A stretch of DNA of 57,532 nt. Source: a virus. Its lineage: Duplodnaviria; Caudoviricetes. The notes under the pieces are model-generated. The model was not told the origin of the DNA, did no database searches, and worked only from the letters and a program-made list of their open reading frames with translations. Position 1 is the first letter of the stretch. Each line of letters opens with the position of its first letter. A program made the translations under genes and the position numbers. This document shows positions 1 to 29,994 of the stretch, in pieces. The stretch lies in the IMG/VR virus record IMGVR_UViG_3300017744_000007, positions 1 through 57,532 of that record; one strand, 5' to 3'.

Positions 1-2823
1 AACTCATTATTGTCTGTTATGCCTAAGTCTATAGTTAATAAAATTAACGAAAGCTTAACTGCTGAAAAAATAAATAAAGGGCTTGCTCTTAGTAGGGCAG
101 ACGTTCTTAGTGCAGCTAGAAGCAATGTTTATTCCGTTCCCAATGTATACTTTGGAAATGATGTTTTGTCGCCTGAAATAAAAGAAGCCATACAAAGCAA
201 TCAAGACTTTTTAAAATTTATTGAATCTAACGGAGTTTTTAAACTTGCAAACATACCGTATCAAAAATTAACATCAAGCAATAAGAATATTGTTGATATG
301 TTATTTACAAGAGAAGGAGACAATTTAGTTTTTGACATAGAAAAAGTTAAGTCTATTATAGAAGGAGGTATTGATATTGCTCCAATAATGTTTAACAAAG
401 AATTGCATTATATTGATTTAAAATCTATTGTTGATAATAACAATCCTTCTCAGTGGATTAAAAAAGCAGACACAGTAGAAACTACACCAACACCTCCTCC
501 TGGTAAAGACTCTGCAATAGTTTTAGCAGAAACATTAAAAAAAAAGGGCGATAGGATTATGAGAAGAAAGGTCATTAATGATTCTGCTTTAAGAAGCTTT
601 AATCAAGACATGACTTTAGAAGAATACTTTGAAGCTAGAGGTTTGAAAAAGTCTTTAATGAAAAACGACACTATCTCTCAGGAAGTAGAAAAAGAATTTA
701 GAAAACTTAAAAACTCTAAAAAGTTTATAGACTCTTTGCTTGACAACAAAAATGAATTTTCTCTTTCTAATATGTCTAAGTTTACTAAAGAAGAACTTAT
801 GGGTACTGCTGTAGCTATTTCTACAGACGACTCTTTAGAGAAAGTAGGAAAGAACGCTATAACAAAAGAAATATCTATTCTTATTGCACAAAAAGCAAGA
901 GACGAACAGATGGCTTTAAATCCTGAAGGATATGCTGGAGCTAACGAAGGCGATGTATCTTTCTTTAAAAAGTGGCTAATGTCTAATGACGTAGACACAA
1001 ACAACCCAGACGTGCAAGCTATGACTAGAACTGTTGAAGAGCAGTACTTTAAGTTTACGCAAGAATACTCTAAGCAGGCTAGACCAATTAAGGTAATTGC
1101 TAAAAGCTTAAAAGCAGACTTTTATAAAAAAGTAGGAGCTGTAGAGTATGTAAAACTTTGGTTTAAGGGAGACCTGAATAAAGAGATTTACAAAAACGTT
1201 TACGAAATGAGAACTGATAAAGATGGTTCTGAATACATAGTTTTGAAAAAAGACACGACTACTCTTAGTAAAAATGAAAAAGCTTTTCACACAGAGTTTA
1301 GTAGAGTAATGCAAACAGTTAGTGGTAATGAACAATACACTGGTTCTATACCTTATCACACAATTAACTCTAACGAAGCTTTTATGAGACAAGGACTTTA
1401 TGGTATGTATTTAACTAGCGAAGGCATGGAGAACCACTTAAATAGTGTTCCTGTGTACTCTACCGACCCTATTTCTGGACAGCAGGTGAAAAGAACATTT
1501 TTAGAGTGGAAAGAGTTATATGCAAATAAAAACGTGTCTAAGTCTAAGTTCAAAAACCTAAAAGACTTTTCTGAAATAAAGAAAAGAGCAGAAGAGCTTT
1601 TAAAGTCTGGAGTAGATGAAGATGGTACTGCTATTGAGTACGACAGAGTAGCAATTAATTTACTGTTAGAAACAAACGAAACAAGCGGTTACATAGCTCA
1701 AGAGTCTGTAAACATGAAAGAGTTTGCGTCTTATGACTTAGAGTCTATTGCATTAAAGACATTAAGAACACAGATGTTTAATTATGGTTCTAATGACTTT
1801 ATAGGATTTAAGAACTTAGGATTTATGATTGATGGTGTTTTAGAATACAACGAAGACAATCCAAATCTTAAAGAGTGGGTTCAGACTATATACAAAGAGT
1901 ATTTAGCTAAACAAGGCCCTAAAAAGAAAACGTCTAAATTAGGTAAAGCTGCCGATGCTTTTGTATTGTTTACTACACTTAAAGTCTTAGGCCCTTGGAA
2001 CATAGGAATACCTTTAGGAAACATAGCTATTGGCAAGTATCAAGCTATGAGAGCTTCTGGTATGAAGCAGTTTATAAAAGGTGAATCAAGATTTTTAAAT
2101 CCTAAAAACTTTAAAAAGAATGCAGCCCTTATAAGAAACTATGTATCGTTTGATATGTCTATGTATGAAAACTTTTATTCAATGCAGGAAAAGACTCCAT
2201 TTGACCAAATAGCAGACTTGATAATGTTGCCGATGGAGCAGTCTGAAAAATATATACAAGGAGCTACTTTTTTAAGCTTTTTAACTGATGAAGAATACAA
2301 TAACATTAATGTAGATGAAAACGGATTAATTGTTAATAGTCCAATATCTGAAGAAAGGGTTATTGATATAATGGAAAAAGTTAAAAAAGAACAAGGTAAA
2401 GGATACAACACCACAAACCAAAGACTTACTGGTATGCACGCAACAAGCAGACTTTTATTTCAATTTAAAAAATATTTACCTACTTTAGTTGCAGAAAGAT
2501 TTGGTAAAGAAAGAGTTAATAGACTTGGACAATACCAAATAGGTTCTGTAAGAGCTGTTAAAAATGTAGTCACTGATTACATGACGGGTAAGATAACCTA
2601 TGAAGAACTAAAGAATCAGCCTAAGCACGTTAGAGAAGGTGTAAGAAAGTTTAGAAACGGAGTCTTTTTAAGTCTTGCTATTGCGTTAATGGCTGGATGG
2701 GACGAAGAAGATGACTGGAAAGACAAACTAAGTAGAGACACGCAGCTTCTATATGATACTGATAAATATAAATATAGATTAGCTCCTTCTGCATATTGGA
2801 ATATTAAATCTATGGTAGACTAA
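1..2823 (+). CDS. 5'-truncated C-terminal part of a giant virion cargo protein (crAss-like virion RNA polymerase-associated)
   Basis: Frame 1 is open from base 1 (NSLLSVMPK...), so the start lies outside the window. Helical protein ending in GKGY...RLLFQFKKYLP...ERF plus a hydrophobic helix (GVFLSLAIALMAGW), resembling C-termini of large ejected proteins. Precedes the tail genes. Confidence 0.65.
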   Translation, partial: NSLLSVMPKSIVNKINESLTAEKINKGLALSRADVLSAARSNVYSVPNVYFGNDVLSPEIKEAIQSNQDFLKFIESNGVFKLANIPYQKLTSSNKNIVDMLFTREGDNLVFDIEKVKSIIEGGIDIAPIMFNKELHYIDLKSIVDNNNPSQWIKKADTVETTPTPPPGKDSAIVLAETLKKKGDRIMRRKVINDSALRSFNQDMTLEEYFEARGLKKSLMKNDTISQEVEKEFRKLKNSKKFIDSLLDNKNEFSLSNMSKFTKEELMGTAVAISTDDSLEKVGKNAITKEISILIAQKARDEQMALNPEGYAGANEGDVSFFKKWLMSNDVDTNNPDVQAMTRTVEEQYFKFTQEYSKQARPIKVIAKSLKADFYKKVGAVEYVKLWFKGDLNKEIYKNVYEMRTDKDGSEYIVLKKDTTTLSKNEKAFHTEFSRVMQTVSGNEQYTGSIPYHTINSNEAFMRQGLYGMYLTSEGMENHLNSVPVYSTDPISGQQVKRTFLEWKELYANKNVSKSKFKNLKDFSEIKKRAEELLKSGVDEDGTAIEYDRVAINLLLETNETSGYIAQESVNMKEFASYDLESIALKTLRTQMFNYGSNDFIGFKNLGFMIDGVLEYNEDNPNLKEWVQTIYKEYLAKQGPKKKTSKLGKAADAFVLFTTLKVLGPWNIGIPLGNIAIGKYQAMRASGMKQFIKGESRFLNPKNFKKNAALIRNYVSFDMSMYENFYSMQEKTPFDQIADLIMLPMEQSEKYIQGATFLSFLTDEEYNNINVDENGLIVNSPISEERVIDIMEKVKKEQGKGYNTTNQRLTGMHATSRLLFQFKKYLPTLVAERFGKERVNRLGQYQIGSVRAVKNVVTDYMTGKITYEELKNQPKHVREGVRKFRNGVFLSLAIALMAGWDEEDDWKDKLSRDTQLLYDTDKYKYRLAPSAYWNIKSMVD

Positions 2824-5062: not shown

Positions 5063-5836
5063 ATGGCACTAGCAGACAGAAAATCACAAGATATATTTAA
5101 TAAAAGAACTGGAAGCGATAGAGACGCTAAAAGTATAGACACGTCTAAAGAAACTGAAATAAAAAGTAAGTTTGATAATGGCGAACATATATTAGACCAG
5201 GGTATGTTTGAAAACTTAGCACCAGCCTTATACGCGGTACAACAAGTTGCAGACGACATAGAGGAATTAAGAAGATTTGTTTCTTCTGAAATAACAAGCA
5301 TAACCACTAGTCAAGCTTCAGCTATAACAGCTAATACAGCTAAGACTTCAATAACGACAAGCCAGTCTAACGCTATAACAGCAAACACAAATAAAAGAGA
5401 TGCTAGATATATATTTATACCTGTTATCTGTAACTTTTATGGAGAGATAACCACAGAGTCTTACGTTCCTTTTTCTGATGGAGAAACAGAAAGCACAGCA
5501 AACTCAAACAGAAGAAATCAATTTATAGCCCCATTTGATGGTCAGTTTCACAAAGCTATATTTAGAAGCAATCAAAGCTTACTTGAAAGAGGCAAGGGGG
5601 TTACTCTTACTGTAAAATCTAAAAGAGCTAGAAACAACAGCTCAACTGTTGATGATTTAGAAACAGAGACAGTAACAACTACAGCGGCAGAAAACTTTAT
5701 GGAAGTAACATTTTCTTCTACATCTTCATTTAACAAGGGAGACAGGCTTTTAATGTCTATGAGCCTGCCTAGTGTTCCAAGAGGAAACAAAAACTGGTTT
5801 GTCACTGTTATATTTAAAATAGACCAAACTACGTAA
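5063..5836 (+). CDS. putative tail fibre protein
   Basis: Coiled-coil with a duplicated TSITTSQ.xAITANT.K unit; C-terminal domain paralogous to that of 3832-5061. Confidence 0.55.
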   Translation: MALADRKSQDIFNKRTGSDRDAKSIDTSKETEIKSKFDNGEHILDQGMFENLAPALYAVQQVADDIEELRRFVSSEITSITTSQASAITANTAKTSITTSQSNAITANTNKRDARYIFIPVICNFYGEITTESYVPFSDGETESTANSNRRNQFIAPFDGQFHKAIFRSNQSLLERGKGVTLTVKSKRARNNSSTVDDLETETVTTTAAENFMEVTFSSTSSFNKGDRLLMSMSLPSVPRGNKNWFVTVIFKIDQTT

Positions 5837-5845
5837 GAACTTTAT

Positions 5846-5853
5846 TATCTTTG
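5846..5853 (+). promoter_or_regulatory. Bacteroidota -7 promoter box TATCTTTG
   Basis: Matches TAnnTTTG; intergenic; 4 nt before the ATG at 5858. Confidence 0.7.
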
Positions 5854-5857
5854 CAAT

Positions 5858-6127
5858 ATGTATAAGACATACGTTATAAAAAACCTTCAAACTACCGACA
5901 CCACTTTAAGAGACGGCGAAGAATTGTTTTCTGTTTATGTATCAAACACGTCTACAGATGACCAAACGTTTAATTTAAAGATAGATGAAGTTTATGTTTA
6001 CGAAGGAGTCGTTATACCCCCTAGCGTAACTTTAGTTTTAGACAACCCAATTATTTTTGACACAAGTAGGATTACGGTTTCAGCAGGCGTAGCAGATAAA
6101 CTTGACATAACATACACCGTGAAATAA
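5858..6127 (+). CDS. small beta-sandwich-like hypothetical protein
   Basis: 89 aa; stop overlaps the next start (TAATG). Confidence 0.55.
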   Translation: MYKTYVIKNLQTTDTTLRDGEELFSVYVSNTSTDDQTFNLKIDEVYVYEGVVIPPSVTLVLDNPIIFDTSRITVSAGVADKLDITYTVK

Positions 6128-7164
6128 TGAAATTGAGAATTTTTATATTTTTATTTTTAGCGTTTTTTGCAAATACAGCAGACGCACAACTTAAAAAACC
6201 TTTTAAATTTTCTACTTTTTATATAGCGGCTAACGGTGGAACTTCTTTAGCTAACGAAAACATCTACTCGGTAAACAATAGCTTTCTTTCTACAGACACA
6301 ATAATAACACCTTTTGATTACTCTTTAACTATGGGTATTCGCAAGATAAAAAGGTTTGGCTATGAAGATGTTAGCAAGTTTAAAGATGGTACTGAATCTG
6401 CATACGGAGACGCTACTACTATTGGCTTATCTCCTTTTGAATATTTGTTTGAAGTGGACTACAGAAGACAAGAAGGAAATAAATATTTAGACCAACATCA
6501 TTTTCTTAGATACGTAAAGCCTTTATGGATGACTAAAGTATCATACATTAAAGAGGGTTTTGCAGACATTGAATATTACGAAGCTACACAAAGATTTAGA
6601 ATTAATGGCAAAAAGAAGCTATCATTTAATATAGGTGGAGTTCAAAGACTTGCAGAACCTTATGGATACAACCCGTTAGAAGAATGGCTAATAGCTTCGG
6701 GACAGCTACACTATACTTGTTTAGCGATTGAAGAAGGTTACAGCGTAGATGTATACGAATCTGAATATAGAGACCCAAACGGTAATTTAGTAGCGGAGAA
6801 CGCAACTATATGGAATCAAGTAGTTATACCTGAAGTACTAAATGACTACGTAGAAAAGAAAAAGAATGAGTTAGATAATCAATGGCAATACTCTTTGGTG
6901 GTAGGATTTGATTTTTATCATTACAAAAAGAATTTCTGGTTACACTCTTGGGGTAACTTAATGCCTTATCACTATGATGGTGGAGGTGAATACTCATATC
7001 ATAACTTTAACGATGGAGAACAATGGTATGACTACTCAGGAGGATTAATTTTTGGATACAACTTAAACAGAAACGTTGGTTGTTTTATAGAGGGTAAATA
7101 CAATAAGTATTGGAACAGAGAATGGTACGACTTTAAATTTGGTATAAACTATAGAATATTTTAA
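6127..7164 (+). CDS. signal-peptide-bearing putative outer-membrane beta-barrel protein
   Basis: Sec signal ending ADA|Q; alternating aromatic strands; C-terminal beta-signal-like FKFGINYRIF ending in Phe. Confidence 0.65.
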   Translation: MKLRIFIFLFLAFFANTADAQLKKPFKFSTFYIAANGGTSLANENIYSVNNSFLSTDTIITPFDYSLTMGIRKIKRFGYEDVSKFKDGTESAYGDATTIGLSPFEYLFEVDYRRQEGNKYLDQHHFLRYVKPLWMTKVSYIKEGFADIEYYEATQRFRINGKKKLSFNIGGVQRLAEPYGYNPLEEWLIASGQLHYTCLAIEEGYSVDVYESEYRDPNGNLVAENATIWNQVVIPEVLNDYVEKKKNELDNQWQYSLVVGFDFYHYKKNFWLHSWGNLMPYHYDGGGEYSYHNFNDGEQWYDYSGGLIFGYNLNRNVGCFIEGKYNKYWNREWYDFKFGINYRIF

Positions 7165-7165
7165 A

Positions 7166-7447
7166 ATGGCAAAAGAACTTAACGAAGAAACAGGGTTCAA
7201 CGTAAGCATAAAGACTTTATTGGGAATAGGTTTTGCAATGGCAACTCTTATTGGAATGTGGTTTACACTACAGGCAGACATAGCTGAAGCTAAACAGCTA
7301 CCAGCTCCTACACCAGCAGAAATTACTCGCATGGAATTTGATATGAAAGACCAGCTTGTGCGTCAAACAATTATGACTACGCAAGAAGACGTTAAAGAGC
7401 TTAAAGAGGCTATACAGAGAATAGAGGATAAACTAGACGGAAGATAA
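7166..7447 (+). CDS. single-TM protein with C-terminal coiled coil
   Basis: Hydrophobic TLLGIGFAMATLIGMWFTL followed by heptads (EDVKELKEAIQRIEDKL). Confidence 0.65.
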   Translation: MAKELNEETGFNVSIKTLLGIGFAMATLIGMWFTLQADIAEAKQLPAPTPAEITRMEFDMKDQLVRQTIMTTQEDVKELKEAIQRIEDKLDGR

Positions 7448-7797
7448 TGTTTAAGGCTCAAAGAAATATTTTTACTATATACTTGTTAGTTTTATTACTA
7501 TTACTGAGCTGTAATAAGGCTTTTTCTCAAATAGAAATAATACATTTTAATGCTGGTTTCAACTCAGCAAATAATGTTGCTTGGTTTGAAAAGTTAAGAG
7601 AGTGTGACAAACAAAGTCTTTTAATAGAAGAAGACAATAATCAAGTAGAATATCAAATAGCTGTTGTTCCTACAATAGTAGTGTTTGATGACGGTGAAGA
7701 GGTAAAAAGATTTCAAGCAGACATAAGTTTTAAAATGGTTGCTACAAGAAAAGAAATACAAGAATACATTGACGAATTAATAATAAGCAAATTCTAA
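7447..7797 (+). CDS. exported thioredoxin-fold protein lacking CxxC
   Basis: Signal peptide ending AFS|Q; HFNAGFNSAN aligns to the F.A.WCxxC position; YQIAVVPTIVVFDDGEEVKRF is the cis-Pro and C-terminal half of the thioredoxin fold. Confidence 0.7.
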   Translation: MFKAQRNIFTIYLLVLLLLLSCNKAFSQIEIIHFNAGFNSANNVAWFEKLRECDKQSLLIEEDNNQVEYQIAVVPTIVVFDDGEEVKRFQADISFKMVATRKEIQEYIDELIISKF

Positions 7798-9779
7798 TGA
7801 ACAGGTTTACTAAATTTTTATACGCATTTATTATGGTTGTAGTGTTTACACTATCAACTGCTTTTGCTCAATGTCCTAATGGAACATACTTAAACATTGT
7901 AATAAATCCAGACCAATACCCACAAGAAACATCTTGGGTTATTGTTAATGTTTACGGAGACACTATAGTTACAGGAGGGCCTTATACTAATATAATAGAT
8001 TATTCACCACAAATTACACAACTGTGTGTGCCTAACGGTGACTATTACTTTAACATATACGACACTTATGGCGATGGAATGCAAGGAAGTCTATGGGGTG
8101 GTCAAGATGGCTCATACTACCTAATAAGATGTAATGATACTATAGTTGAAATGGATTCAGCTAATTTTGGTACGTACACATATCACGGTTTTACAGTAGA
8201 AGACTGCGCACCTCCGCCTCCTGTATACGGTTGCATGGATAACGACTTTGTAGAGTTTTTACCAATAGCAACAGTTGATACAGGAATGTGTTACACTCCA
8301 AAGTTATACGGATGTACAGATGAAGAAGCATTTAATTATGACAGTATAGCTAATACAAATATACTAACAGATAGCTGCACACACACCTTAGAGTTGACAG
8401 ACTTAGCTGGTAACGGCTGGGCTGGAGCATATCTACAAGTATTTCAAGGTAACAACTTTTTAGGTATATTTACTTTAGAAGATGGTTTTGATACTACGTT
8501 TACTTTTGACCTTAGTATATCAGAGCCTGTGGAGATAAAATTTAATACTACTCAACAATCTCAGTTTACATCGGTACAATGCGGTTATAGTTTATATTCA
8601 GAGGAACATTTAACAATAAGCGAACCAGGAGGCTTTGCTAATCCTTTAATTCCTTTTGCTACAAACTTAGGTATGCCGTATTGCGGCAATAGTTGTATAG
8701 AAAAAATATTTGGTTGTATTGATGATACAGCTTTAAATTATGATGATGGTGCTAACACGGATGATGAAAGTTGTTATTACATTGAAGGATGTACTAATCC
8801 ATTGTATTTAGAATATAACGAAGACGCTGACTTTGATGACGAAAGTTGTTTAACTCCAATAGTTTTAGGATGTATGGACGAGTACGCATTAAACTACAAT
8901 CCTGAAGCAAACGTAGAAATAGAAGGTTATTGCATTGAAATTGTAGAAGGTTGTATGAATGAATTAGCATTTAACTACAACCCTAACGCTAACGTGCCTG
9001 ATACTTGTATAGCGGTAATAGAAGGTTGTATGATTGTTGAAGCTTTAAATTACGATTCTTTAGCCAACACTGACGATGGTAGCTGTACGCTCCCAGTTTT
9101 AGGATGCACTAATTCTGAATCATTTAATTATAATCCACTAGCAAATGTTGACGACAATTCTTGTATAGATGTTGTTTATGGATGCACAGATAATACAATG
9201 TTTAATTATAACTCAGAAGCAAATATAGATAATGGTAATTGCATACCTTTTTATTATGGATGTACAGACAGTACAGCAATTAATTATGACGATAACGCAA
9301 ACTCTGACAATGGGTCTTGTATTTATCCTTTGTATGGGTGCATTAATCCGTCTGCTATTAATTATAATCCACAAGCTAACATGGCAGACAGTAGTTGCTA
9401 TTACTCTGCTGGGTGTTATTCTGGTGATATATACTATGTGCCTAATGAATGTTTTAGCTGGGTTATCGAAGTAGACCCATATTGCTGCAATACAAACTGG
9501 GACGATGGTTGTGATGGACTTTACGAATATTGCGTAGATGGATGGACTGGGCCTGTGGGGGTTGAGACTTATAACAGACTTGGAATAAATCCCTATCCAA
9601 ATCCAACTAAAAATACTGTTAATTTTAATAACTTTGTAGATGTTGATGTTTACGATGCAAAAGGAATTTTAGTAAACAGACATAAAAAGATTAATGCTTT
9701 AGACTTGCCAAAAGGTATGTATCATTTAATAATAAAGTTTAATGAATTAATTTTCAACAAAACAATAGTTAAATTATAA
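7797..9779 (+). CDS. secreted Cys-repeat protein with T9SS type-A C-terminal sorting domain
   Basis: Signal peptide ending AFA|Q; 11 GC[TM]D..A.NY...AN.DD.SC repeats; C-terminal YPNPT...YDAKG...LPKGMYHLII...KTIVKL. Confidence 0.8.
   Translation: MNRFTKFLYAFIMVVVFTLSTAFAQCPNGTYLNIVINPDQYPQETSWVIVNVYGDTIVTGGPYTNIIDYSPQITQLCVPNGDYYFNIYDTYGDGMQGSLWGGQDGSYYLIRCNDTIVEMDSANFGTYTYHGFTVEDCAPPPPVYGCMDNDFVEFLPIATVDTGMCYTPKLYGCTDEEAFNYDSIANTNILTDSCTHTLELTDLAGNGWAGAYLQVFQGNNFLGIFTLEDGFDTTFTFDLSISEPVEIKFNTTQQSQFTSVQCGYSLYSEEHLTISEPGGFANPLIPFATNLGMPYCGNSCIEKIFGCIDDTALNYDDGANTDDESCYYIEGCTNPLYLEYNEDADFDDESCLTPIVLGCMDEYALNYNPEANVEIEGYCIEIVEGCMNELAFNYNPNANVPDTCIAVIEGCMIVEALNYDSLANTDDGSCTLPVLGCTNSESFNYNPLANVDDNSCIDVVYGCTDNTMFNYNSEANIDNGNCIPFYYGCTDSTAINYDDNANSDNGSCIYPLYGCINPSAINYNPQANMADSSCYYSAGCYSGDIYYVPNECFSWVIEVDPYCCNTNWDDGCDGLYEYCVDGWTGPVGVETYNRLGINPYPNPTKNTVNFNNFVDVDVYDAKGILVNRHKKINALDLPKGMYHLIIKFNELIFNKTIVKL
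8712..9398 (+). repeat. nine tandem ~26-aa Cys-bounded repeats (GCxD..A.NY...AN.DD.SC)
   Basis: Visible in the translation; two more copies at about 8230-8380. Degenerate at DNA level. Confidence 0.85.
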
Positions 9780-10084
9780 TGGCTGAAAAAAGAAAAAAGT
9801 CTAAAACAATTAGAAAAACCACAAAAGGCAAGGGAGCTAATTATAGGTCTACTAAGTCTGGAGCTGGTATGACTCGTAAAGGAGTTAAGGCATATAGAAA
9901 AGCAAACCCTGGTAGTAAATTAAAGACTGCCGTAACGGGAAAGGTTAAAGCTGGGAGTAAGGCTGCTAAAAGAAGAAAGTCTTATTGCGCTAGAAGTTTA
10001 GGTCAACTAAAAAAGAGTAGTGCTAAAACTAGGAATAATCCTAACTCAAGAATTAGAGCCGCTCGTAGGCGATGGAAATGTTAA
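9779..10084 (+). CDS. highly basic small phage protein
   Basis: 101 aa, K/R-rich; GAGMT.KGV..YR..NPGSKLKTAVTG...RRKSYCARS...RRRWKC pattern familiar from aquatic phages. Confidence 0.7.
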   Translation: MAEKRKKSKTIRKTTKGKGANYRSTKSGAGMTRKGVKAYRKANPGSKLKTAVTGKVKAGSKAAKRRKSYCARSLGQLKKSSAKTRNNPNSRIRAARRRWKC

Positions 10085-10567: not shown

Positions 10568-10978
10568 ATGCTAAATAATATATTAGGAGGGATACTTGGT
10601 AAAGTAGTAGACAACGCTGAGGGTATTCTTGATAAAGTAATTACTACTGACAAAGAAAGAGAAGAGGCTAAACTACAGTTACGCAAAGTCTTGTTAGACG
10701 CAGAGAAAGAAGCTTTTAATAAAGAAGTGGAAGACAGGAAGGACGCAAGAGACTTGTATAAAGACGATGCTATAATTCAAAAGATACTTGCTACTTTATT
10801 TACAGTAGCTTATTTTGGTATTAGCTTTGTTATGTTTCAACACTTTGTTAATGGAGTTATTGACTTAGGAGAGTTTGAGATTAGTTTTATATCTACTATA
10901 TTTGGAGCTATGTCTGCAAAAGTTAATACTATTATAGACTTTTTCTTTGGAGGAAGCTCTAGTAAAGAAAAAAAATAA
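10568..10978 (+). CDS. putative holin (GTA/3TM holin-like)
   Basis: Amphipathic N-terminus, DKVITTDKEREEAK motif, two TM helices, FFFGGSS end; near the putative lysin. Confidence 0.6.
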   Translation: MLNNILGGILGKVVDNAEGILDKVITTDKEREEAKLQLRKVLLDAEKEAFNKEVEDRKDARDLYKDDAIIQKILATLFTVAYFGISFVMFQHFVNGVIDLGEFEISFISTIFGAMSAKVNTIIDFFFGGSSSKEKK

Positions 10979-10979
10979 T

Positions 10980-11171
10980 ATGCCAGCTAAAAAGAAATCT
11001 ACAGTAAACGCAAGCGGAAACTACACAAAGCCTACAATGCGTAAAAGACTTTTTAATTCTATAAAAGCAGGAAGCAAAGGAGGTAAGCCTGGACAGTGGT
11101 CTGCACGTAAAGCTCAGATGCTTGCTAAAAAATACAAAGCTGCTGGAGGTGGATATAAAAGCAAAAAGTAA
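10980..11171 (+). CDS. basic small phage protein
   Basis: ATG at 10980 directly after the holin stop; NYTKP..RKRLF..IKAG.KGG.PGQWSARKAQ.LA..YK..GGGY motif. Confidence 0.7.
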   Translation: MPAKKKSTVNASGNYTKPTMRKRLFNSIKAGSKGGKPGQWSARKAQMLAKKYKAAGGGYKSKK

Positions 11172-11413
11172 TGGCATTAACTAAAAGACAGAAAAGTTTA
11201 AAAAAGTGGACTAAACAAAAGTGGAGGACTGCTTCTGGAAAAAAGTCTAGTAAAACTGGAGAAGTCTATGCTCCCGCAAAAACTATTGCTAAATTAAAAA
11301 GCACTGAAAAAGGTAGAAAAAAACTAGCAGCAGCTAATGCTAAAAAAAGAAAAGCAACCAAGAAAGGTAAGCAGCACGCTAAACACGGATTACATAAAGG
11401 AAAAAAAAGATAA
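11171..11413 (+). CDS. basic small phage protein (DUF5872-like)
   Basis: Q.SLKKWTKQKWRT.SGK.S..TGE.Y.P motif; coupled by TAATG overlaps on both sides. Confidence 0.65.
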   Translation: MALTKRQKSLKKWTKQKWRTASGKKSSKTGEVYAPAKTIAKLKSTEKGRKKLAAANAKKRKATKKGKQHAKHGLHKGKKR

Positions 11414-11889
11414 TGAATTTACAAGTATTAAGATTTAGTAGTGGAGAAGACTCAACCTCTGGATTATTGTTTGAAACAAACTTAGACATGAAGTCTTTTT
11501 TATGTTACACGCTAGAAGACGAAGCTAGAGATGTAAAGATAAAGGGTGAAACAAGAGTTCCTGCTGGCACGTATAAAATAAAATTAAGAACCGAAGGAGG
11601 ATTTCATGGAAGATACACTAAAAAATATTCTGGTATGCACGTTGGTATGTTGCATATCGTTGACGTTCCTGGTTTTGAGTATATTCTTATACACACTGGA
11701 AACACTGATGAACATACTGCTGGCTGTCTTATCGTTGGTGATAGTCAAGAAAACAATAACATTCTTAAAGATGGTTTTATTGGAAAAAGTGTTAATGCCT
11801 ATAAAAGAATCTATCCAAAAATAGCAAACGCTATTAAGTCTGGAGAAGAAGTTACTATAACTTATATAGATTACGACATAAAACTTTAA
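11413..11889 (+). CDS. DUF5675-like L,D-peptidase-fold protein, putative endolysin
   Basis: CYTLED...GET.VPAGTY and ILIHTGNT..HTAGCLIVG with a His/Cys pair; family is common in crAss-like phages. Confidence 0.75.
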   Translation: MNLQVLRFSSGEDSTSGLLFETNLDMKSFLCYTLEDEARDVKIKGETRVPAGTYKIKLRTEGGFHGRYTKKYSGMHVGMLHIVDVPGFEYILIHTGNTDEHTAGCLIVGDSQENNNILKDGFIGKSVNAYKRIYPKIANAIKSGEEVTITYIDYDIKL

Positions 11890-12928: not shown

Positions 12929-14214
12929 AGAAAAAAAAACATACTGAAGACATAAGAAAATATCTCTTATCTAATCCAGAACTATTAAACGCTAAGTACT
13001 CACAAACAGCAAAGCTATTTGAAACTAATTACGAAGTAGTAAGAGGTATAGCTAGAAGACTTAGAGAAGAAATAAATCCACCAAACTCTAAAGAAACTAC
13101 TTCTTTTGAAGAAAATAAACAAGGAGCTATAGTTACTTGTGAGGATAGCAAACGAGTTAAGTCTTTAGACGACCTTTTAAAAGCTTGTAATGTAGACTTA
13201 GATGTCTGGGAGGTAGATAAGTACGATATAGGTACTTATGAGGTTACAGGCTTTGATAAAGCTAAAAGACCTATAACAGTACCAATGTTTAGGACGAAAG
13301 CTTGGTTAAAGAAAATAAACCCACTACAAAATATAAAAAAAATAAGAGAGGAGCTAATAGAAGATTTAACTCCTCTTTTTTATTCTAAGCCTAAATGGGT
13401 AATTAGACCACATAGCTATAAAGAAGACGACCCGCATCTTTTAGAAATCAATGCTTTTGACTTACACTTAGGTAAGATTGGAATAAAAGGTGACGAGTAC
13501 AGCCTTGAAATAGCTAGAGAAAGAATGATTAACGCATTAACACACTTAGTAAAAAGAGCAAGTGGTTATTGTGTAGACGAAATTCTTTTTGTTGTCGGTA
13601 ATGACTTTTTAAACTCAGATGGGGACTTTCCGTTAGCAGCAACTACAAAAGGAACGCCACAATCTAATACAGACACAGGAATGCAAATGTATAGAGCTGG
13701 ACGTAAACTAATTGTAGAGTGCGTTGAAATGCTTGTTGAGTATGCTGATGTTCATATTGTTATTATTCCAGGTAATCACGACAGAGAGTCTATGATGCAC
13801 ATAGGAGACGCTTTAGAGATGTTTTATGAAAACAACGAAAATGTCTCTGTAGACAATAGCGACAGCATGATGAAGGCGCACAAGTACGGAAGATGTCTTA
13901 TTGTTAATGACCACGGTGATGGTGCAAAACTTATAAACTTACCAGGCATAGTGTCTCAAAGATATAGAGATGTATGGAGTGAGGTAAAGTATGTGGAGGT
14001 TCATAGAGGACATCTACACACTAATAAGTCTTATAAGATGCAGGCCGTTGAAGAACTTAACGGACTTACAGTAAGAAATCTATCATCAATGTCTGCTACT
14101 GACGAATGGCATGATATGAAGGGTTATGTTGGAAACATAAAGAAAGCTTCCGCTTTTATTTGGAGCAAGTACAATGGAGTACAAGCCAAGCTAAACTACA
14201 ATGTTGAGGTTTAG
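12925..14214 (+). CDS. calcineurin-like metallophosphoesterase with N-terminal HTH-like region
   Basis: Motifs DLHLG, GND, GNHD, HGD and GHLH in canonical order. Confidence 0.85.
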   Translation: MKKKKHTEDIRKYLLSNPELLNAKYSQTAKLFETNYEVVRGIARRLREEINPPNSKETTSFEENKQGAIVTCEDSKRVKSLDDLLKACNVDLDVWEVDKYDIGTYEVTGFDKAKRPITVPMFRTKAWLKKINPLQNIKKIREELIEDLTPLFYSKPKWVIRPHSYKEDDPHLLEINAFDLHLGKIGIKGDEYSLEIARERMINALTHLVKRASGYCVDEILFVVGNDFLNSDGDFPLAATTKGTPQSNTDTGMQMYRAGRKLIVECVEMLVEYADVHIVIIPGNHDRESMMHIGDALEMFYENNENVSVDNSDSMMKAHKYGRCLIVNDHGDGAKLINLPGIVSQRYRDVWSEVKYVEVHRGHLHTNKSYKMQAVEELNGLTVRNLSSMSATDEWHDMKGYVGNIKKASAFIWSKYNGVQAKLNYNVEV

Positions 14215-14870
14215 TTTTTAGACAACAACTCTAAAACTTCTGTTAAAGATTCGTGTCTGTGGTTGTCTTCAAGCAAAATTCTATATACATATTTAGAGGA
14301 AGTTATTTTTGAAACCTCATGTATTGCAGAATAATTCCTGTCTTTTAAATCTATTTGTTGTTTGTCGCCGCAAAAAATCATCATAGAATTTTTCCCAAGT
14401 CTACTTAATGCCATTTGAAACTGCGACCTTGTAAGATTTTGAAACTCATCTACAATTACAACAGCATTGTCAAAAGTTCTACCTCTGAAGTGAGCTAAAC
14501 TTACTAGCTCTATTTCTTCATCGTTAGTCATTTTATCAAGCTTATCTGGCTTGTTATAAACCTTACGCATATTAGACATGATAGGTACTAACCAAGGTTC
14601 CATCTTTTCTTTTTCAGAGCCTGGTAAGAATCCATTATCTTCAGTAGAGACGGTAGGACGAGTTATAATTATTTTATTATACTTTCTTTTAAAGAACATA
14701 TCAAGAGCAGTCTGTACAGCTAACAAAGTTTTACCTGAGCCAGCTTTACCAATGACAAAACTAAATGGGTGTTTTAAAATTTCAGACTTAGCAATTTTTT
14801 GCTCGTCAGACAGTGTGATGGCAAACCTTATAGCTCCCTTTGGAGAAGGCTTACCTTTATTTTCTTTCAT
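14211..14870 (-). CDS. phoH: PhoH-family ATPase
   Basis: GKAGSGKT, IIITRP, GFLPG...EKM.PW, RGRTF, DEFQN, SRLG, GD..Q.D. ATG at 14870 preferred over TTG at 14900. Confidence 0.93.
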   Translation of the reverse strand: MKENKGKPSPKGAIRFAITLSDEQKIAKSEILKHPFSFVIGKAGSGKTLLAVQTALDMFFKRKYNKIIITRPTVSTEDNGFLPGSEKEKMEPWLVPIMSNMRKVYNKPDKLDKMTNDEEIELVSLAHFRGRTFDNAVVIVDEFQNLTRSQFQMALSRLGKNSMMIFCGDKQQIDLKDRNYSAIHEVSKITSSKYVYRILLEDNHRHESLTEVLELLSKN

Positions 14871-14976
14871 ATTTATATGGAGGTTTATTATATTCTGCAA
14901 TTAATAAAGAGTCAATCTTTTTTATCATCGCAACGTAATACCTTCTTAGTTTCTGTAACTTGTCTTTTCTTGTCAT
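14857..14976 (-). CDS. 39-aa hypothetical peptide (not in ORF track)
   Basis: Hand translation MTRKDKLQKLRRYYVAMIKKIDSLLIAEYNKPPYKYERK*; fills the gap and overlaps the phoH start. Confidence 0.45.
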   Translation of the reverse strand: MTRKDKLQKLRRYYVAMIKKIDSLLIAEYNKPPYKYERK

Positions 14977-24806: not shown

Positions 24807-25757
24807 TTAATTAGTTTCTAATAATTGACCTTCTGTAACAGACTTTAATAAGTTAGATAGAAAAGCTTTTTCTTTTCCATTTTTAACCCACTTAACTTCT
24901 ATTAAGTTTTTGATTTTTAATAAGTCTTTAACATTTTTAGTTGTCTCCATGCCTCGACCTAAGCCGCTTGACGGAACTCCGTCTAAAAAGTTAATCCAGT
25001 TTGTAAAGCCATAAGACCTGTAGAGTCCAGGGATACCAATACAGGCAACCCTAGACACATCAAGTTTTTCACTAGCAGACTTTAACTTAAAAGTAAAGCC
25101 CTGTTCATAGTGTATAGCTTTACGTGGCTTATCTTTATGTTCAAATGTTCTTGTAACATTATGAGCAACACAAAGAGCTAAGACCTCTACAGACAAACCA
25201 CAACGTTGAAGCATATCTACTGCAACAGTAGTTAATGCACCCAACTGATTAAGTTGTTTTTCTGTATGTCCAGAGGTAACAGAAAAGTTGACAGCAAGTC
25301 TGACTACATTTTCTTTCTTACCTTTAGTCATAGACTGCCAGTGTTCTGGGTCTCCTGAAAGAACTCTATCTATATCAAGCTCTGAGCCTGAGTCTGAGAA
25401 CTTTCTTCTACGTTTAAAGGATACAGCTTTACGCATTGATTCTTCTATTCCATCCATGTTTAACAATATATCTCTGTATTTAGAAATTTGTTTAAGGGTT
25501 TTGTTGGAACATTCGCCATTACGTAAAGCCTTTGTTGTAGACTCTAGGCGTGGAAACTCTGTACCAAAAGTCCATTCGTCATCACCCATGTCTAAATATT
25601 TCTTAGACTTACCAGTAATAGAGTGATTAATCATTTCATCTGCATTATCATAATGTATGATTTCTGCACCATTACCATTTTCAAATACAACCTTGTCGTA
25701 TTCGTATGGCACATTCTTTTCTTTATCTAATCTTTGCTTTATCATATTATATTGCAT
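24807..25757 (-). CDS. VWA-like (CobT-like) partner of the MoxR-type ATPase
   Basis: G.ELDIDR.L.G.P motif, then strand VVRLAVNFSVTSG, helix ..D.L...G..VEV and LK...E.LD; overlaps the ATPase stop. Confidence 0.65.
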   Translation of the reverse strand: MQYNMIKQRLDKEKNVPYEYDKVVFENGNGAEIIHYDNADEMINHSITGKSKKYLDMGDDEWTFGTEFPRLESTTKALRNGECSNKTLKQISKYRDILLNMDGIEESMRKAVSFKRRRKFSDSGSELDIDRVLSGDPEHWQSMTKGKKENVVRLAVNFSVTSGHTEKQLNQLGALTTVAVDMLQRCGLSVEVLALCVAHNVTRTFEHKDKPRKAIHYEQGFTFKLKSASEKLDVSRVACIGIPGLYRSYGFTNWINFLDGVPSSGLGRGMETTKNVKDLLKIKNLIEVKWVKNGKEKAFLSNLLKSVTEGQLLETN

Positions 25758-26943
25758 TAATTATTTCATTCATTTTTATTTTAGACTTTTCTTCAGAAGA
25801 CCAGTCTATCATTAAATTGTTTATAAAATCTTTAATAGACTTTCCAGAAGACACTTGTCTTTGACCAGATATAAATACACGAGTACTTATTACTCTGCGT
25901 ATTTTCTTGTCCAACACAGCTTTTCTTAAATTTGTAAGAGCAGTGTATAGAAAATCGTCAGTACATATTTTCTTCTCTAGTTTAGAGTCATAGTCAACTA
26001 CAACCTTAGATGCTGAAAACCTATCCATAAAGGCTGCGTCCATGTAGTTTCTACCTGCGTATTCTATAGAGCCAGAACCCCAGGTGTTACCTGCACATAT
26101 ACACATAAAGTCTTTATGTCTTTTTGCTGATGGATTATCTTTTCTGTTAGGTACAGACATAGAGCCATTTGCTAATGCAGAGTTAACGACTAACAAAGTG
26201 TTAGCGTCTGCTGCATCTATTTCGTCAAACAAGAATATACCACCATTCTCGTAGCAGTCTACAAAGTCTGACTTGACATACGTGCCGTCAAACAGCATAC
26301 GTCCCAGCAGGTGAGCTTCTGAAAGTCCAGCAGAACATGAGATATGTTTGAACTGAACTCCTAATGCTTTAGCTACTTGAGATGCCATGTGTGTCTTACC
26401 TGAACCTGAAGGGCCAGCGACAAATACTTGTCTTTCCATTTCACAGAAATACAGCACGTCTTTAAAAGCTTTGTGCAAGCTTTCTTCTAATACAACTTCT
26501 TTTCTGTTAGGGATGCGTACTAGAGTAGGCTTTAATTTAGCCACTTCTTTCTCAACCTTAACATTAATTTGTTTATTGATGAGTTCTTCACGTTGTCCTT
26601 CTAGTAAGTTTTGGACAGCGCTACTTATTACAGCTCCCAAGTCAAGACCTAAGTCGATTTTCATTTGATTTCCTTCCATTGATGATTTTTGTTTAGGTGT
26701 TGTTAATTGTTTAGTTTCTGTAGGAGGGTTTGTTCTTTCAAACAAATCTTCTACAGGCTCAGTATCTTTAATATATTTATGTATAGATTCTTCTGAACAA
26801 TAAGTTTTTATTGCAAATATTAAAGCTTCTTTATTAGCCCTATTAACTGATTCATAAATGTCAACTAAATAGTCTATTGCGTGAGATTCTTTTCTTGCAA
26901 TTTTTCTAAGTCTGTCTACTGATAATTCTTTTAATTGTTTCAT
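25747..26943 (-). CDS. MoxR/CobS/NirQ-type AAA+ ATPase
   Basis: Walker A GPSGSGKT, Walker B FLFDEID, AGNT.G.G...Y.GRN..DAAF.DRF, ISTR. Confidence 0.9.
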   Translation of the reverse strand: MKQLKELSVDRLRKIARKESHAIDYLVDIYESVNRANKEALIFAIKTYCSEESIHKYIKDTEPVEDLFERTNPPTETKQLTTPKQKSSMEGNQMKIDLGLDLGAVISSAVQNLLEGQREELINKQINVKVEKEVAKLKPTLVRIPNRKEVVLEESLHKAFKDVLYFCEMERQVFVAGPSGSGKTHMASQVAKALGVQFKHISCSAGLSEAHLLGRMLFDGTYVKSDFVDCYENGGIFLFDEIDAADANTLLVVNSALANGSMSVPNRKDNPSAKRHKDFMCICAGNTWGSGSIEYAGRNYMDAAFMDRFSASKVVVDYDSKLEKKICTDDFLYTALTNLRKAVLDKKIRRVISTRVFISGQRQVSSGKSIKDFINNLMIDWSSEEKSKIKMNEIINAI

Positions 26944-29233: not shown

Positions 29234-29273
29234 AATGTTTGTTGCCTGTTACCAGGACTTTGTTGGTTAATAA

Positions 29274-29441: not shown

Positions 29442-29573
29442 AATACTTTATACATTTAGTTATTAAGTTACTGTTTCGTTTTTTTAAACTCATCAGATAA
29501 GATACTCATCTTATTACAGTGAGTAGTTTTGAATCTTACTCAGGATTATTGATTTACTTTTAGTATTATCAAT

Positions 29574-29783: not shown

Positions 29784-29794
29784 AATAGTTTTAG

Positions 29795-29971: not shown

Positions 29972-29994
29972 AATAGTTTAATTTAGTTTTAGTT

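What the first reader, a model, noticed from the sequence alone, without database searches (positions are those of the whole stretch)
6127..9779. Phage-encoded cell-envelope module: OM beta-barrel + TM coiled-coil + CxxC-less thioredoxin + T9SS cargo
Seen: four tightly coupled genes (1-nt gap or TAATG overlaps) downstream of a promoter box at 5846, sitting between tail and lysis genes. Three have Sec signal peptides, one ends in a beta-signal-like sequence, and one ends in a type-A T9SS sorting domain. Established: that domain directs export through the Bacteroidota type IX secretion system, and T9SS cargo is handled by accessory beta-barrels (PorV; PorP/SprF for type-B cargo). Inference: this apparently lytic phage (no integrase seen) uses the host T9SS to display or release a disulfide-rich protein and brings its own barrel, membrane anchor and periplasmic chaperone. 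Possible roles are receptor masking or superinfection exclusion, adhesion of infected cells, or outer-membrane disruption. I know of no characterised phage system like this; it is my best candidate for a new system.
Basis: partly seen in the sequence, partly recalled or inferred. Interest (0 to 1): 0.85.

Follow-up and report, generated by a model that had tools for sequence, protein, structure and literature searches.

The report
Phage envelope module with T9SS cargo
An uncultured marine crAss-like phage of Bacteroidota carries a widely conserved gene set for an outer-membrane barrel, an inner-membrane coiled-coil protein, a redox-dead periplasmic thioredoxin and a surface protein exported by the host type IX secretion system, placed just before its lysis genes; what the set does is untested.

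Summary
The four ORFs are real and tightly coupled, and 70 of 80 related viral loci carry all four.

- **A** is predicted as a 12-14-strand outer-membrane barrel of a phage-only family with no Pfam match.
- **B** is an N-in/C-out membrane protein with a periplasmic coiled coil.
- **C** is a thioredoxin fold in which WCGPC has become an invariant WNxxN.
- **D** is a Cys-rich adhesin-like protein. Its T9SS type A tail recurs in 52 of 55 homologues.
- Signal peptides of A, C and D follow the Bacteroidetes Q-rule.

A, B and C also travel together in a distant lineage that has no T9SS cargo, where an acidic-N-terminus lipoprotein takes D's place. So the barrel and the thioredoxin are not T9SS- or D-specific.

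The module lies directly upstream of the lysis genes, whatever the lysin type. My best reading, which is inference, is a lysis-coupled envelope-spanning core plus a lineage-specific surface component. Receptor masking is the main rival. Phage OM barrels and phage T9SS cargo both have precedents, but I found no description of this module.

The parts
5846..5853 (+). TATCTTTG, a match to the Bacteroidota -7 promoter consensus TAnnTTTG (consensus recalled), in the 21-nt gap before g5858
   Evidence: present, but the motif is not enriched in the window (100 found, 87.5 +/- 11.1 expected). A contig in a metatranscriptome run spans 5807-6477 across it.
5858..6127 (+). g5858, an 89-aa ORF translationally coupled to A (TAATG); no family match and not part of the conserved module
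   Evidence: found in only 2 of 80 related loci.
6127..7164 (+). A: Sec-exported predicted 12-14-strand outer-membrane beta-barrel with a conserved insert (about residues 177-250) and a C-terminal ...NYRIF
   Evidence: AF2 pLDDT 74.9, pTM 0.70. All top Foldseek and VIA matches are OM barrels, best Z 10.9. Atlas neighbours are OMP families. 3,718 relatives at 90% clustering, none named and none with a Pfam domain among the 120 listed. No Pfam, NCBIfam or PHROG hit.
7166..7447 (+). B: bitopic inner-membrane protein (TM about residues 17-35, N-in/C-out), juxtamembrane motif LQADIAEAKxLP, periplasmic amphipathic coiled-coil helix
   Evidence: Distant homologues carry an N-terminal MshEN/PilB-N type cytoplasmic domain (profile vs PDB E 1.2e-8) and weak coiled-coil matches.
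7447..7797 (+). C: secreted thioredoxin-fold protein with the active site WCGPC replaced by WNxxN (N39 and N42 invariant), cis-Pro motif kept (V74-P75-T76), invariant C-terminal F
   Evidence: Alignment of 52 sequences. Profile vs PDB gives 27 of 27 hits to thioredoxins, best E 4.7e-7. Weak single-sequence hits.
7797..9779 (+). D: 660-aa T9SS type A cargo with 35 Cys
7872..8684 (+). D residues 26-296: two beta-sandwich domains (motifs DQYPxETSW...YGDG and LTDLAGNGWAG) joined by a Cys-rich linker
   Evidence: AF2 pLDDT 62; domain 1 is about 80. Only generic Ig/CBM/C2-like matches, best Z 6.4. 947 relatives, all unnamed.
8694..9416 (+). D residues 300-540: about ten 26-residue two-cysteine repeats (GCxDxxAxNYNxxANxDDGSC)
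   Evidence: The same repeat occurs in a cyanophage S-CAM3 virion structural protein and in a signal-peptide-less 1151-aa protein of L005.
9450..9533 (+). D residues 552-579: invariant Cys/Trp-rich knot (CFxWVIxVDPYCCxxxWDxxC...YC)
   Evidence: Invariant columns in the 55-sequence tail alignment.
9594..9776 (+). D residues 600-660: T9SS type A C-terminal sorting domain
   Evidence: TIGR04183 26.4 bits in the whole protein and 31.1 bits for the tail alone, cut-off 23. 52 of 55 homologue tails match. It is the only CTD in the window by my own HMM.
9779..10084 (+). g9779: very basic 101-aa DUF6321 protein, coupled to D by TAATG; not a constant module member
   Evidence: Pfam E 1.5e-11, PHROG hits, junction; in 24 of 80 loci.
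10568..10978 (+). Holin-like membrane protein
   Evidence: Weak matches: phrog_3427 holin E 6.9e-4 and GTA_holin_3TM E 0.03. A similar gene lies about 0.5 kb downstream of the distant module in L151 (GTA_holin_3TM E 3.7e-4).
11413..11889 (+). DUF5675 protein, putative L,D-peptidase-type endolysin
   Evidence: Pfam E 2.9e-27, Tlde1 E 2.9e-4. Homologues in cultured phages are annotated as L,D-carboxypeptidase or peptidoglycan hydrolase. Proposed as a C82-like lysin in a preprint. Lies downstream of the module in 44 of 70 loci.

Best explanation
The region is a conserved, phage-encoded cell-envelope module of marine crAss-like phages that infect Bacteroidota.

Shown or strongly indicated:
- A is Sec-exported and is predicted as a 12-14-strand outer-membrane barrel of a phage-only family.
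- B sits in the inner membrane with its N-terminus inside and a coiled-coil helix in the periplasm.
- C is a periplasmic thioredoxin-fold protein that cannot do redox chemistry, because both Cys are replaced by invariant Asn. It is therefore a binding or scaffold protein.
- D is a disulfide-rich, adhesin-like protein with a conserved type A CTD. It should therefore be passed through the host T9SS and displayed or released.
- A-B-C is the old core. The fourth, surface-directed component is interchangeable: the T9SS cargo here, and a lipoprotein with an acidic N-terminus in a distant lineage.

Inferred: the module abuts the endolysin and holin genes whatever the lysin type, and the genome has no other spanin-like pair. 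I therefore read A-B-C as an inner-membrane to periplasm to outer-membrane set that acts late, as part of or as a control on the outer-membrane step of lysis. D coats the cell surface beforehand. The barrel is not a T9SS accessory.
For: Anatomy.

Bacteroidota export signature (Q after the signal-peptidase site): 66 of 70 A, 60 of 61 C and 56 of 61 D N-termini, against 3 of 26 other window proteins. The rule is from PMC5837995, seen as a search listing with the start of its abstract.

Co-occurrence: 70 of 80 loci have all four genes, in order ABCD in 61 and BCDA in 9. DABC order is seen in L143.

Core without D: in the distant lineage, all 9 loci that have enough downstream DNA carry B and C homologues, and 8 of those 9 carry the lipoprotein. 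C compared with the distant thioredoxin-like protein gives hhalign probability 95.7%, E 9.8e-9. 0 of 15 distant loci have a CTD hit.

Lysis linkage: DUF5675 lies downstream in 44 of 70 loci, never upstream. It abuts or overlaps the module in 13 and is within 1 kb in 30. A holin-like gene is downstream in 21. In L143 a PG_binding_1 + Amidase_2 lysin follows the module directly. In L151 a holin-like gene lies about 0.5 kb after C.

No other spanin candidate: the only lipobox or N-terminal-TM ORFs in real coding frames of the window are A-D, the holin-like gene and a few other small or internal-TM ORFs.

Topological analogy: a gut crAss-like phage has a TM + coiled-coil gene overlapping its DUF5675 gene.
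Against: No experiment exists, and no expression timing is known. B has only about 58 periplasmic residues, no Cys, and no detectable homology to the crAss gp008 (probability 2.7%) or to any spanin family. C is rarely a lipoprotein (3 of 72 lipobox-like), so there is no classical o-spanin. A large, highly conserved barrel and a 660-1260-aa T9SS cargo are not what known spanins look like. Lysis adjacency is also the classic site of accessory 'moron' genes such as lambda bor (recalled), so linkage alone does not prove a lysis role. In 26 of 70 loci no DUF5675 gene was found within the fetched DNA. A's deeply invariant residues show no catalytic set, so an enzymatic membrane-breaking activity is not supported.
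Confidence: 0.42

Rival explanations
1. Receptor masking, superinfection exclusion or protection of progeny from re-adsorption. The barrel and the surface protein (D or the lipoprotein) change or cover the receptor landscape of the infected cell and its debris, as lambda Lom does with LamB. B and C help assemble or tether the complex.
For: In both lineages the variable fourth component is directed to the cell surface: a T9SS CTD in 52 of 55, and a lipoprotein with acidic residues right after the Cys in the distant lineage. That acidic stretch resembles the Bacteroidetes lipoprotein export signal (PMC5080379, abstract and passages). D is much more variable than A-C, at 600-1260 aa with swapped N-terminal domains, as expected for something facing variable surfaces. 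Its Cys repeats recur in a cyanophage virion structural protein and in a probable structural protein. The 2026 preprint on huge-phage OMPs favours this role and cites Lom-LamB (passages read).
Against: A, B and C are strongly conserved (A mean column identity 64%), and the module lies in the late, lysis-proximal block. Exclusion genes are usually early or independently expressed (recalled). Nothing explains the inner-membrane protein and the dead thioredoxin. No receptor is known.
Confidence: 0.27
2. One reading: a self-contained T9SS cargo system, with A as a phage-supplied PorV- or PorP/SprF-like shuttle or anchor barrel for D, C as a periplasmic chaperone for the disulfide-rich D, and B as a membrane anchor.
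For: A, B, C and D co-occur in 70 of 80 close loci, and D stays inside the module in all three cyclic gene orders. Redox-inactive thioredoxin domains can bind unfolded substrates, as the PDI b' domain does (recalled). PorV does appear among the structural matches (Z 7.1).
Against: Homologous A, B and C persist together in a lineage with no CTD protein in 0 of 15 loci. A hits no PorV or PorP/SprF model at E <= 0.1. PorV ranks 30th, below many unrelated 12-strand barrels.
Confidence: 0.15
3. A is an auxiliary porin or channel that boosts nutrient or solute flux during infection, and the neighbouring genes are unrelated accessory genes.
For: The best structural matches include substrate-specific 12-14-strand channels: Tsx Z 10.8, KdgM 10.7, NanC 10.0. 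The deeply conserved residues are mostly charged, as in channel lumens.
Against: This does not explain the strict co-inheritance of B and C with A across deep divergence, or the coupling by overlapping stop and start codons.
Confidence: 0.06
4. D (and perhaps A) are virion or assembly proteins. The C-terminal domain would be just an Ig-like structural domain and not a secretion signal.
For: CTDs are Ig-like beta-sandwiches (PMC11285876, seen as a search listing with the start of its abstract). D's repeats occur in a cyanophage virion protein. The module follows the tail genes.
Against: D has an N-terminal signal peptide with the Q-rule site in 56 of 61 distinct N-termini. It has 35 Cys, which suits an oxidising compartment. 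Its CTD scores above the curated TIGR04183 cut-off.
Confidence: 0.03

Closest known systems
Phage-encoded T9SS type A cargo ('Cryophage', Bellas et al. 2020, PMC7468147; T9SS sorting-domain proteins in gut crAss-BACON phage clusters, de Jonge et al. 2019, PMC6949934)
   Same: A phage gene product that carries a Bacteroidota T9SS C-terminal sorting domain and is presumed to use the host secretion system (passages read).
   Different: Those cargos are enzymes or BACON/PA14 proteins described as variable single genes. The passages I read mention no accompanying barrel, inner-membrane protein or pseudo-thioredoxin. Here the cargo is a non-enzymatic Cys-repeat protein embedded in a conserved four-gene module next to the lysis genes.
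Phage-encoded outer-membrane beta-barrels (lambda Lom; cyanophage OMP-like family PF24653; 1,603 OMPs of huge phages, bioRxiv 10.64898/2026.10.24.761521)
   Same: A signal-peptide-bearing beta-barrel encoded by a phage and inserted into the host outer membrane. Envelope-related neighbouring genes are noted in the preprint (passages).
   Different: A matches none of these families by sequence (no Pfam hit at E <= 0.1). It is in a 57-kb crAss-like phage rather than a phage over 200 kb. It has 12-14 strands with a conserved insert. It is co-inherited with B and C. The preprint has no occurrence of 'T9SS', 'type IX' or 'thioredoxin'. Its supplementary tables could not be read.
Two-component spanins (lambda Rz/Rz1, P2 LysB/LysC)
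   Same: B has the i-spanin layout: an N-terminal TM, N-in/C-out, a periplasmic coiled coil, and a position next to the endolysin and holin. Together with an outer-membrane partner it would span the periplasm.
   Different: The outer-membrane candidate is a 345-aa barrel, lipidated in only some homologues, rather than a small proline-rich lipoprotein. A globular pseudo-thioredoxin is interposed. B lacks the periplasmic Cys residues of Rz (recalled). There is no sequence similarity to any spanin family.
T9SS outer-membrane accessory barrels PorV (LptO) and PorP/SprF
   Different: No sequence match. PorV is only a mid-ranking structural match. The A family also occurs without any CTD protein nearby.
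Redox-inactive thioredoxin-fold domains (for example PDI b/b' domains, TXNDC5-type domains)
   Same: C and its distant counterpart keep the thioredoxin fold and the cis-Pro loop but lack CxxC.
   Different: C is a stand-alone, secreted, about 90-residue phage protein with an invariant WNxxN and an invariant C-terminal Phe. No partner is known.

Membership tests
T9SS type A cargo (D) | C-terminal domain matching TIGR04183 / PF18962 | tested here: met
   TIGR04183 26.4 bits (cut-off 23) in the whole protein and 31.1 bits for the tail. PF18962 26.8 bits against a cut-off of 27, so just under it. 52 of 55 homologue tails match at E <= 0.01.
T9SS type A cargo (D) | N-terminal Sec signal peptide | tested here: met
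   Hydrophobic N-terminus ending ...TAFA|Q. The Q-rule motif is in 56 of 61 distinct N-termini. This is a heuristic; SignalP was not available.
T9SS type A cargo (D) | Secretion and CTD removal depend on a host T9SS | not testable with these tools
   The host is uncultured and unknown. A Bacteroidota host is inferred from the Q-rule, the CTD and crAss-like structural genes.
PorV / PorP-SprF T9SS barrels (A) | Sequence match to the family models | tested here: not met
   No Pfam or NCBIfam family at E <= 0.1 for A other than a spurious GPCR hit. The A1 profile has no PDB sequence hit at E <= 1.
PorV / PorP-SprF T9SS barrels (A) | Specific structural similarity | tested here: inconclusive
   PorV 6h3i_F: Z 7.1, rmsd 6.7, 186 residues aligned, rank 30. 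The best matches are unrelated 12-strand barrels at Z 10-11.
PorV / PorP-SprF T9SS barrels (A) | Obligate association with CTD cargo | tested here: not met
   0 of 15 distant A loci (199,429 bases) have a CTD hit, against 58 of 80 close loci as a positive control. The HMM was built from D tails, so very divergent CTDs could be missed.
Outer-membrane beta-barrel proteins (A) | Signal peptide, closed antiparallel barrel, C-terminal aromatic beta-signal | tested here: met
   Model pLDDT 74.9 with about 14 long strands. 46 Foldseek hits at E <= 0.001, with OM barrels at the top. 11 chains with Z >= 8, all barrels. The C-terminus ...NY[RIV]IF is conserved. Membrane insertion was not tested.
Thioredoxin superfamily (C) | Thioredoxin fold with the cis-Pro loop | tested here: met
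   Profile vs PDB: 27 of 27 hits are thioredoxins, best E 4.7e-7. V74-P75-T76 are invariant. No structure model of C was made.
Thioredoxin superfamily (C) | CxxC redox active site | tested here: not met
   WNxxN with N39 and N42 invariant in 52 sequences. C is therefore a pseudo-thioredoxin and not an oxidoreductase.
Two-component spanin (B plus an OM partner) | i-spanin: N-terminal TM, periplasmic coiled coil, gene in the lysis cassette | tested here: met
   TM from about residue 17 and a helical C-terminus with weak coiled-coil matches. Lysin gene downstream in 44 of 70 loci. This is a match of layout only; there is no homology.
Two-component spanin (B plus an OM partner) | o-spanin: small OM lipoprotein encoded within or next to the i-spanin gene | tested here: not met
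   C is lipobox-like in 3 of 72 homologues, and the window's own LLSC may be one. A is lipobox-like in 20 of 80, but it is a 345-aa barrel. No other lipobox ORF exists in the window.
Cyanophage OMP-like family PF24653 / Lom-Ail family | Sequence match to the Pfam model | tested here: not met
   No hit at E <= 0.1. PF24653 appears only as one of several OMP neighbours in the Atlas feature search, with score 0.93 and 149 shared features, which is below the level typical of the same family.

The most novel reading that the evidence does not exclude
A-B-C is a previously unrecognised, beta-barrel-based envelope-spanning apparatus that replaces spanins in a very abundant group of marine Bacteroidota phages. 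An inner-membrane coiled-coil protein is linked through a pseudo-thioredoxin adaptor to a phage barrel in the outer membrane, and this executes or gates the last step of lysis. In some lineages it would be under small-molecule control, because distant modules carry MshEN, H-NOX and cNMP-binding domains. A surface protein delivered by the T9SS or by the lipoprotein export route is an integral fourth subunit.
Probability: 0.22. Interest if true: 0.88.

Novelty: new variant of a known kind. Interest (0 to 1): 0.68.

Why it matters
How phages of Bacteroidota breach or remodel the outer membrane is essentially unknown, and spanins are rarely found in them. This module has thousands of variants in marine viromes: 3,718 clusters for A and 947 for D. 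It carries no Pfam domain on A or B, and no cultured phage has it. It links three host machineries in one operon-like block next to the lysis genes: Sec with the Q-rule, outer-membrane barrel insertion, and T9SS or lipoprotein surface export. If it acts in lysis, it defines a new solution to the outer-membrane step. If it masks receptors, it is a widespread exclusion system in the ocean's main polysaccharide degraders. Either way it gives concrete, cloneable candidates, and it offers a phage-derived T9SS cargo and barrel for testing in Flavobacterium laboratory strains.

Tried and rejected
- **Complex prediction** of mature A + periplasmic B + mature C, with C as the scored partner: score 0.00 and no verdict. 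This is evidence neither for nor against binding.
- **A as an OM enzyme (OMPLA/LpxR-like):** these folds are among the matches (Z 9.5-9.6). However, a 34-sequence deep alignment keeps no Ser/His/Asp-type set, only Gly, aromatic and charged residues. The idea was dropped, though it is not excluded.
- **DNA and protein searches of 50,697 GenBank phage records:** no match for the region or for A. For D, only repeat-level hits.
- **Atlas search of D residues 26-300:** only unnamed viral clusters.
- **Fold searches of D's N-terminal domains:** generic beta-sandwiches, best Z 6.4, no function.
- **Cellular homologues of A:** the genome-contig scan gave 6 loci, all MAG contigs with phage gene content or inconsistent labels (Parvibaculum, Nitrosopelagicus, Rickettsiales). 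I read these as mis-binned phage DNA.
- **Distant A homologue P0166 as a query:** no viral locus found.
- **Homology of B to the TM + coiled-coil gp008 of gut crAss phage cr111_1:** probability 2.7%.
- **Sequence of g11413 against the PDB:** no hit.
- **Promoter box:** not distinguishable from chance.
- **RNA evidence:** the three runs hold only 5-9% of the sampled words. Contigs 90-95% identical cover 5807-6477, 6643-7094, 7065-7341 and parts of D in one marine metatranscriptome. DNA carry-over cannot be excluded, and contigs show neither transcript ends nor levels.

Full report
**What is there**

The window is one whole IMG/VR viral contig of 57,532 bases, classed as linear and estimated 86% complete.

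| Gene | Coordinates | Length |
|---|---|---|
| A | 6127-7164 | 345 aa |
| B | 7166-7447 | 93 aa |
| C | 7447-7797 | 116 aa |
| D | 7797-9779 | 660 aa |

The junctions are TAATG overlaps at g5858|A, B|C, C|D and D|g9779, with a 1-nt gap at A|B. The coupled chain is therefore six genes long.

The phage is crAss-like:
- The 1718-aa ORF is a Crassvirus muzzle protein (PF25731, E 1.2e-121), and the 849-aa ORF has a tail-lysozyme domain.
- Terminase, portal and capsid match PHROGs.
- The capsid's only GenBank relatives are crAss-like and Flavobacterium phages.

Downstream lie a holin-like gene (10568-10978, weak matches) and a DUF5675 protein (11413-11889, E 2.9e-27). Homologues of the DUF5675 protein in cultured phages are annotated as L,D-carboxypeptidase or peptidoglycan hydrolase. 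A 2026 preprint groups a DUF5675 protein with C82-like peptidase lysins (passages read).

Ten early-block ORFs gave PhoH, a Rad52-type protein, a PDDEXK nuclease and a DnaA-like HTH protein, among others, with no integrase.

The 'promoter box' TATCTTTG at 5846 is present, but the motif TAnnTTTG is not enriched: 100 found against 87.5 +/- 11.1 expected.

**The four proteins**

*A.* A has no Pfam, NCBIfam or PHROG match. An AlphaFold2 model built on 71 sequences (pLDDT 74.9, pTM 0.70) shows about 14 long antiparallel strands and an insert at residues 177-250.
- Foldseek gave 46 matches at E <= 0.001. The top ones are all outer-membrane barrels such as NanC, PorB, EstA, FadL and FapF.
- The independent aligner gave 11 chains with Z >= 8, all barrels: EstA 10.9, Tsx 10.8, KdgM 10.7, NalP 10.3 and NanC 10.0. 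PorV scored only 7.1.
- Language-model neighbours are OMP families.
- The C-terminus ...YNKYWNREWYDFKxGINYxIF is nearly invariant.

*B.* B has one TM segment, a strongly conserved juxtamembrane LQADIAEAKELP motif and an amphipathic C-terminal helix. Distant homologues add an N-terminal domain that matches the cytoplasmic N-domain of PilB/MshE (E 1.2e-8). This fixes the orientation as N-in, C-out.

*C.* C aligns with thioredoxins. All 27 PDB hits of its profile are thioredoxins, with best E 4.7e-7. The WCGPC site has become WNxxN with both Asn invariant, and the cis-Pro motif is kept.

*D.* D has the following parts:
- a signal peptide;
- two beta-sandwich domains of generic fold (model pLDDT 62, best Z 6.4);
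- about ten 26-residue two-Cys repeats;
- an invariant Cys/Trp knot;
- a type A CTD that passes the TIGR04183 cut-off.

*Export signature.* A, C and D all have Gln right after the predicted signal-peptidase site. The motif is in 66 of 70, 60 of 61 and 56 of 61 distinct N-termini respectively, against 3 of 26 other window proteins. This is the Bacteroidetes Q-rule (PMC5837995, seen as a search listing with the start of its abstract). Phage proteins obeying it were noted before in P. gingivalis phages (PMC10367356, passages read).

**Conservation**

A has 469 relatives among viral contigs and 3,718 clusters in the protein collection. None of the 120 listed is named or has a Pfam domain, and all sit on phage-sized contigs. 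A profile search of 1.84 billion representatives found 392 proteins at E <= 0.001, many of them fragments.

D's N-terminal region has 947 relatives. Of the 120 listed, 108 carry PF18962.

In the 80 best A loci:
- B is present in 76, C in 72 and D in 72, while the flanking genes g5858 and g5063 are in 2 and 8.
- 70 loci have all four as complete or partial ORFs. I dropped L005 from this count because its 'D' hit is a different, signal-less protein.
- The gene order is ABCD in 61 and BCDA in 9, and 40 of the 70 are compact.
- A MAG contig shows the order DABC. The order is therefore conserved cyclically.

Of 55 D tails, 52 match TIGR04183 at E <= 0.01. The 55 are the window plus 54 of the 57 distinct complete homologue tails. 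I left out L005 and two near-duplicates.

A second, distant lineage of A (420-436 aa, 26-39% identical to A) was sampled in 15 loci. Six of them end within about 0.8 kb after A. All nine others carry a B homologue (compare LVGMWYALQADIQEAKELP) directly upstream of a secreted CxxC-less thioredoxin-like gene. That gene is homologous to C (hhalign probability 95.7%, E 9.8e-9), and its own profile hits only thioredoxin-type PDB chains.

None of the 15 loci (199,429 bases) has a D relative or a CTD by an HMM built from the D tails. The same HMM finds a CTD in 58 of 80 close loci and only in D within the window.

In place of D, 8 of the 9 loci have a lipoprotein of about 170-205 aa whose Cys is followed by acidic residues, for example C-E-D-S-R-V-E-D. 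This resembles the Bacteroidetes lipoprotein export signal for surface exposure (PMC5080379, abstract and passages), but that reading is an inference.

So A-B-C is the conserved core and the surface-directed fourth member is exchangeable. The barrel and the pseudo-thioredoxin cannot be dedicated accessories of the T9SS cargo.

**Link to lysis**

In the 70 four-gene loci, the DUF5675 gene lies downstream of the module in 44 and never upstream. It abuts or overlaps the last module gene in 13, is within 1 kb in 30 and within 3 kb in 42. The holin-like gene is downstream in 21.

- In L143 the module is followed directly by a different lysin type (PG_binding_1 + Amidase_2).
- In L151 a holin-like gene lies about 0.5 kb after C.
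- A scan of all window ORFs found no lipobox ORF other than C and an antisense artefact. It also found no other N-terminal-TM protein that could pair as a spanin.
- A gut crAss-like phage has a 114-aa TM + coiled-coil gene overlapping its DUF5675 gene, but that gene is not homologous to B.

**Reading**

The anatomy is well supported: exported barrel, inner-membrane coiled-coil protein, periplasmic pseudo-thioredoxin and T9SS cargo, in a Bacteroidota phage. The function is inferred.

I favour a late, lysis-coupled envelope-spanning role for A-B-C, with D as a surface coat (0.42). The reasons are:
- the lysin linkage does not depend on the lysin family;
- B has an i-spanin-like layout;
- the genome has no other spanin candidate.

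Against this reading:
- B's periplasmic part is short;
- there is no lipoprotein partner;
- the conservation and size of A are unusual for a spanin partner;
- the presence of D is unexplained by a lysis role;
- lysis-proximal sites are also where accessory genes accumulate.

Receptor masking or exclusion (0.27) explains the surface-directed, variable fourth component, and it has the Lom-LamB precedent cited in the 2026 preprint. It leaves B and C unexplained.

A complex prediction gave no verdict. RNA evidence is weak: contigs from 90-95% identical relatives in one marine metatranscriptome cover parts of g5858-A, the A-B junction and D.

**Novelty**

Phage-encoded T9SS cargo and phage OM barrels are in print. 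My searches found no description of a barrel + bitopic protein + pseudo-thioredoxin module, with or without T9SS cargo. The 2026 OMP preprint has no occurrence of 'T9SS', 'type IX' or 'thioredoxin'. Its supplementary tables, and those of Bellas 2020, were not readable and could list relatives. I therefore rate this as a new variant of a known kind, namely phage-encoded envelope accessory modules, with a real chance (0.22) that it is a new lysis device.

Noticed in passing
L146:10413-10964; L152:11091-11747; L148:11963-12565; L146:10964-11632: Distant versions of the module carry signalling or envelope genes inside or beside them. These are an H-NOX (HNOB) protein (E 2.3e-45), a membrane protein with a cyclic-nucleotide-binding domain (E 2e-14), a PAP2 phosphatase (E 8.8e-10), and a B homologue fused to an MshEN/PilB-N type domain. 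Together they hint at small-molecule control.
   Followed up: partly
L016, L018, L019, L023, L025, L028, L030, L032, L033 and others (A homologues): About a quarter of A homologues (20 of 80 by a lipobox pattern) replace the ordinary signal peptide with a lipoprotein-type one followed by a conserved xPK[KE]CCSQ stretch. Some of these barrels may therefore be lipid-anchored.
   Followed up: partly
window 29096-30291 (+ strand): Nine TAnnTTTG matches cluster within 1.2 kb in the divergent region between the leftward early block and the rightward late block. These are far better candidates for real host-type promoters than the box at 5846.
   Followed up: no
window 9779-10084, 10947-11171, 11171-11413: Three small, extremely basic Lys/Arg-rich proteins (one is DUF6321) lie between the module and the putative lysin. 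Their role is unknown; they could be DNA-binding, internal virion or membrane-active proteins.
   Followed up: no
window 1-2823 and 51540-57530: Both contig ends fall inside very long ORFs (940 aa open at the 5' end, 1997 aa open at the 3' end) with no family match. This fits an incomplete genome (86%) and the giant tail or ejected proteins of crAss-like phages.
   Followed up: partly
L005:327-3782; GenBank S-CAM3 records: D's 26-residue two-Cys repeat also occurs in a signal-peptide-less 1151-aa protein of a related phage and in a cyanophage virion structural protein. It is therefore a mobile module shared by exported and probably virion-borne proteins.
   Followed up: partly
L141, L142, L144 (genome contigs): Contigs carrying the module sit in MAGs labelled Parvibaculum, Nitrosopelagicus and Rickettsiales. 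L144 shows phage gene content alongside B, C, D and A, so these look like phage contigs mis-binned into unrelated genomes.
   Followed up: partly
L157 (contig 216 kb), L160 (130 kb), L068 (120 kb), L116 (298 kb): A or D relatives occur on viral contigs from about 57 kb to nearly 300 kb. The module, or its parts, may therefore move between phage lineages of very different genome size.
   Followed up: no
window 14211-14900 (- strand); 25747-26943 (- strand): The phage carries a PhoH-like gene (E 1e-52) and an ATPase that matches a PHROG labelled 'porphyrin biosynthesis'. Both are common marine-phage auxiliary genes.
   Followed up: no
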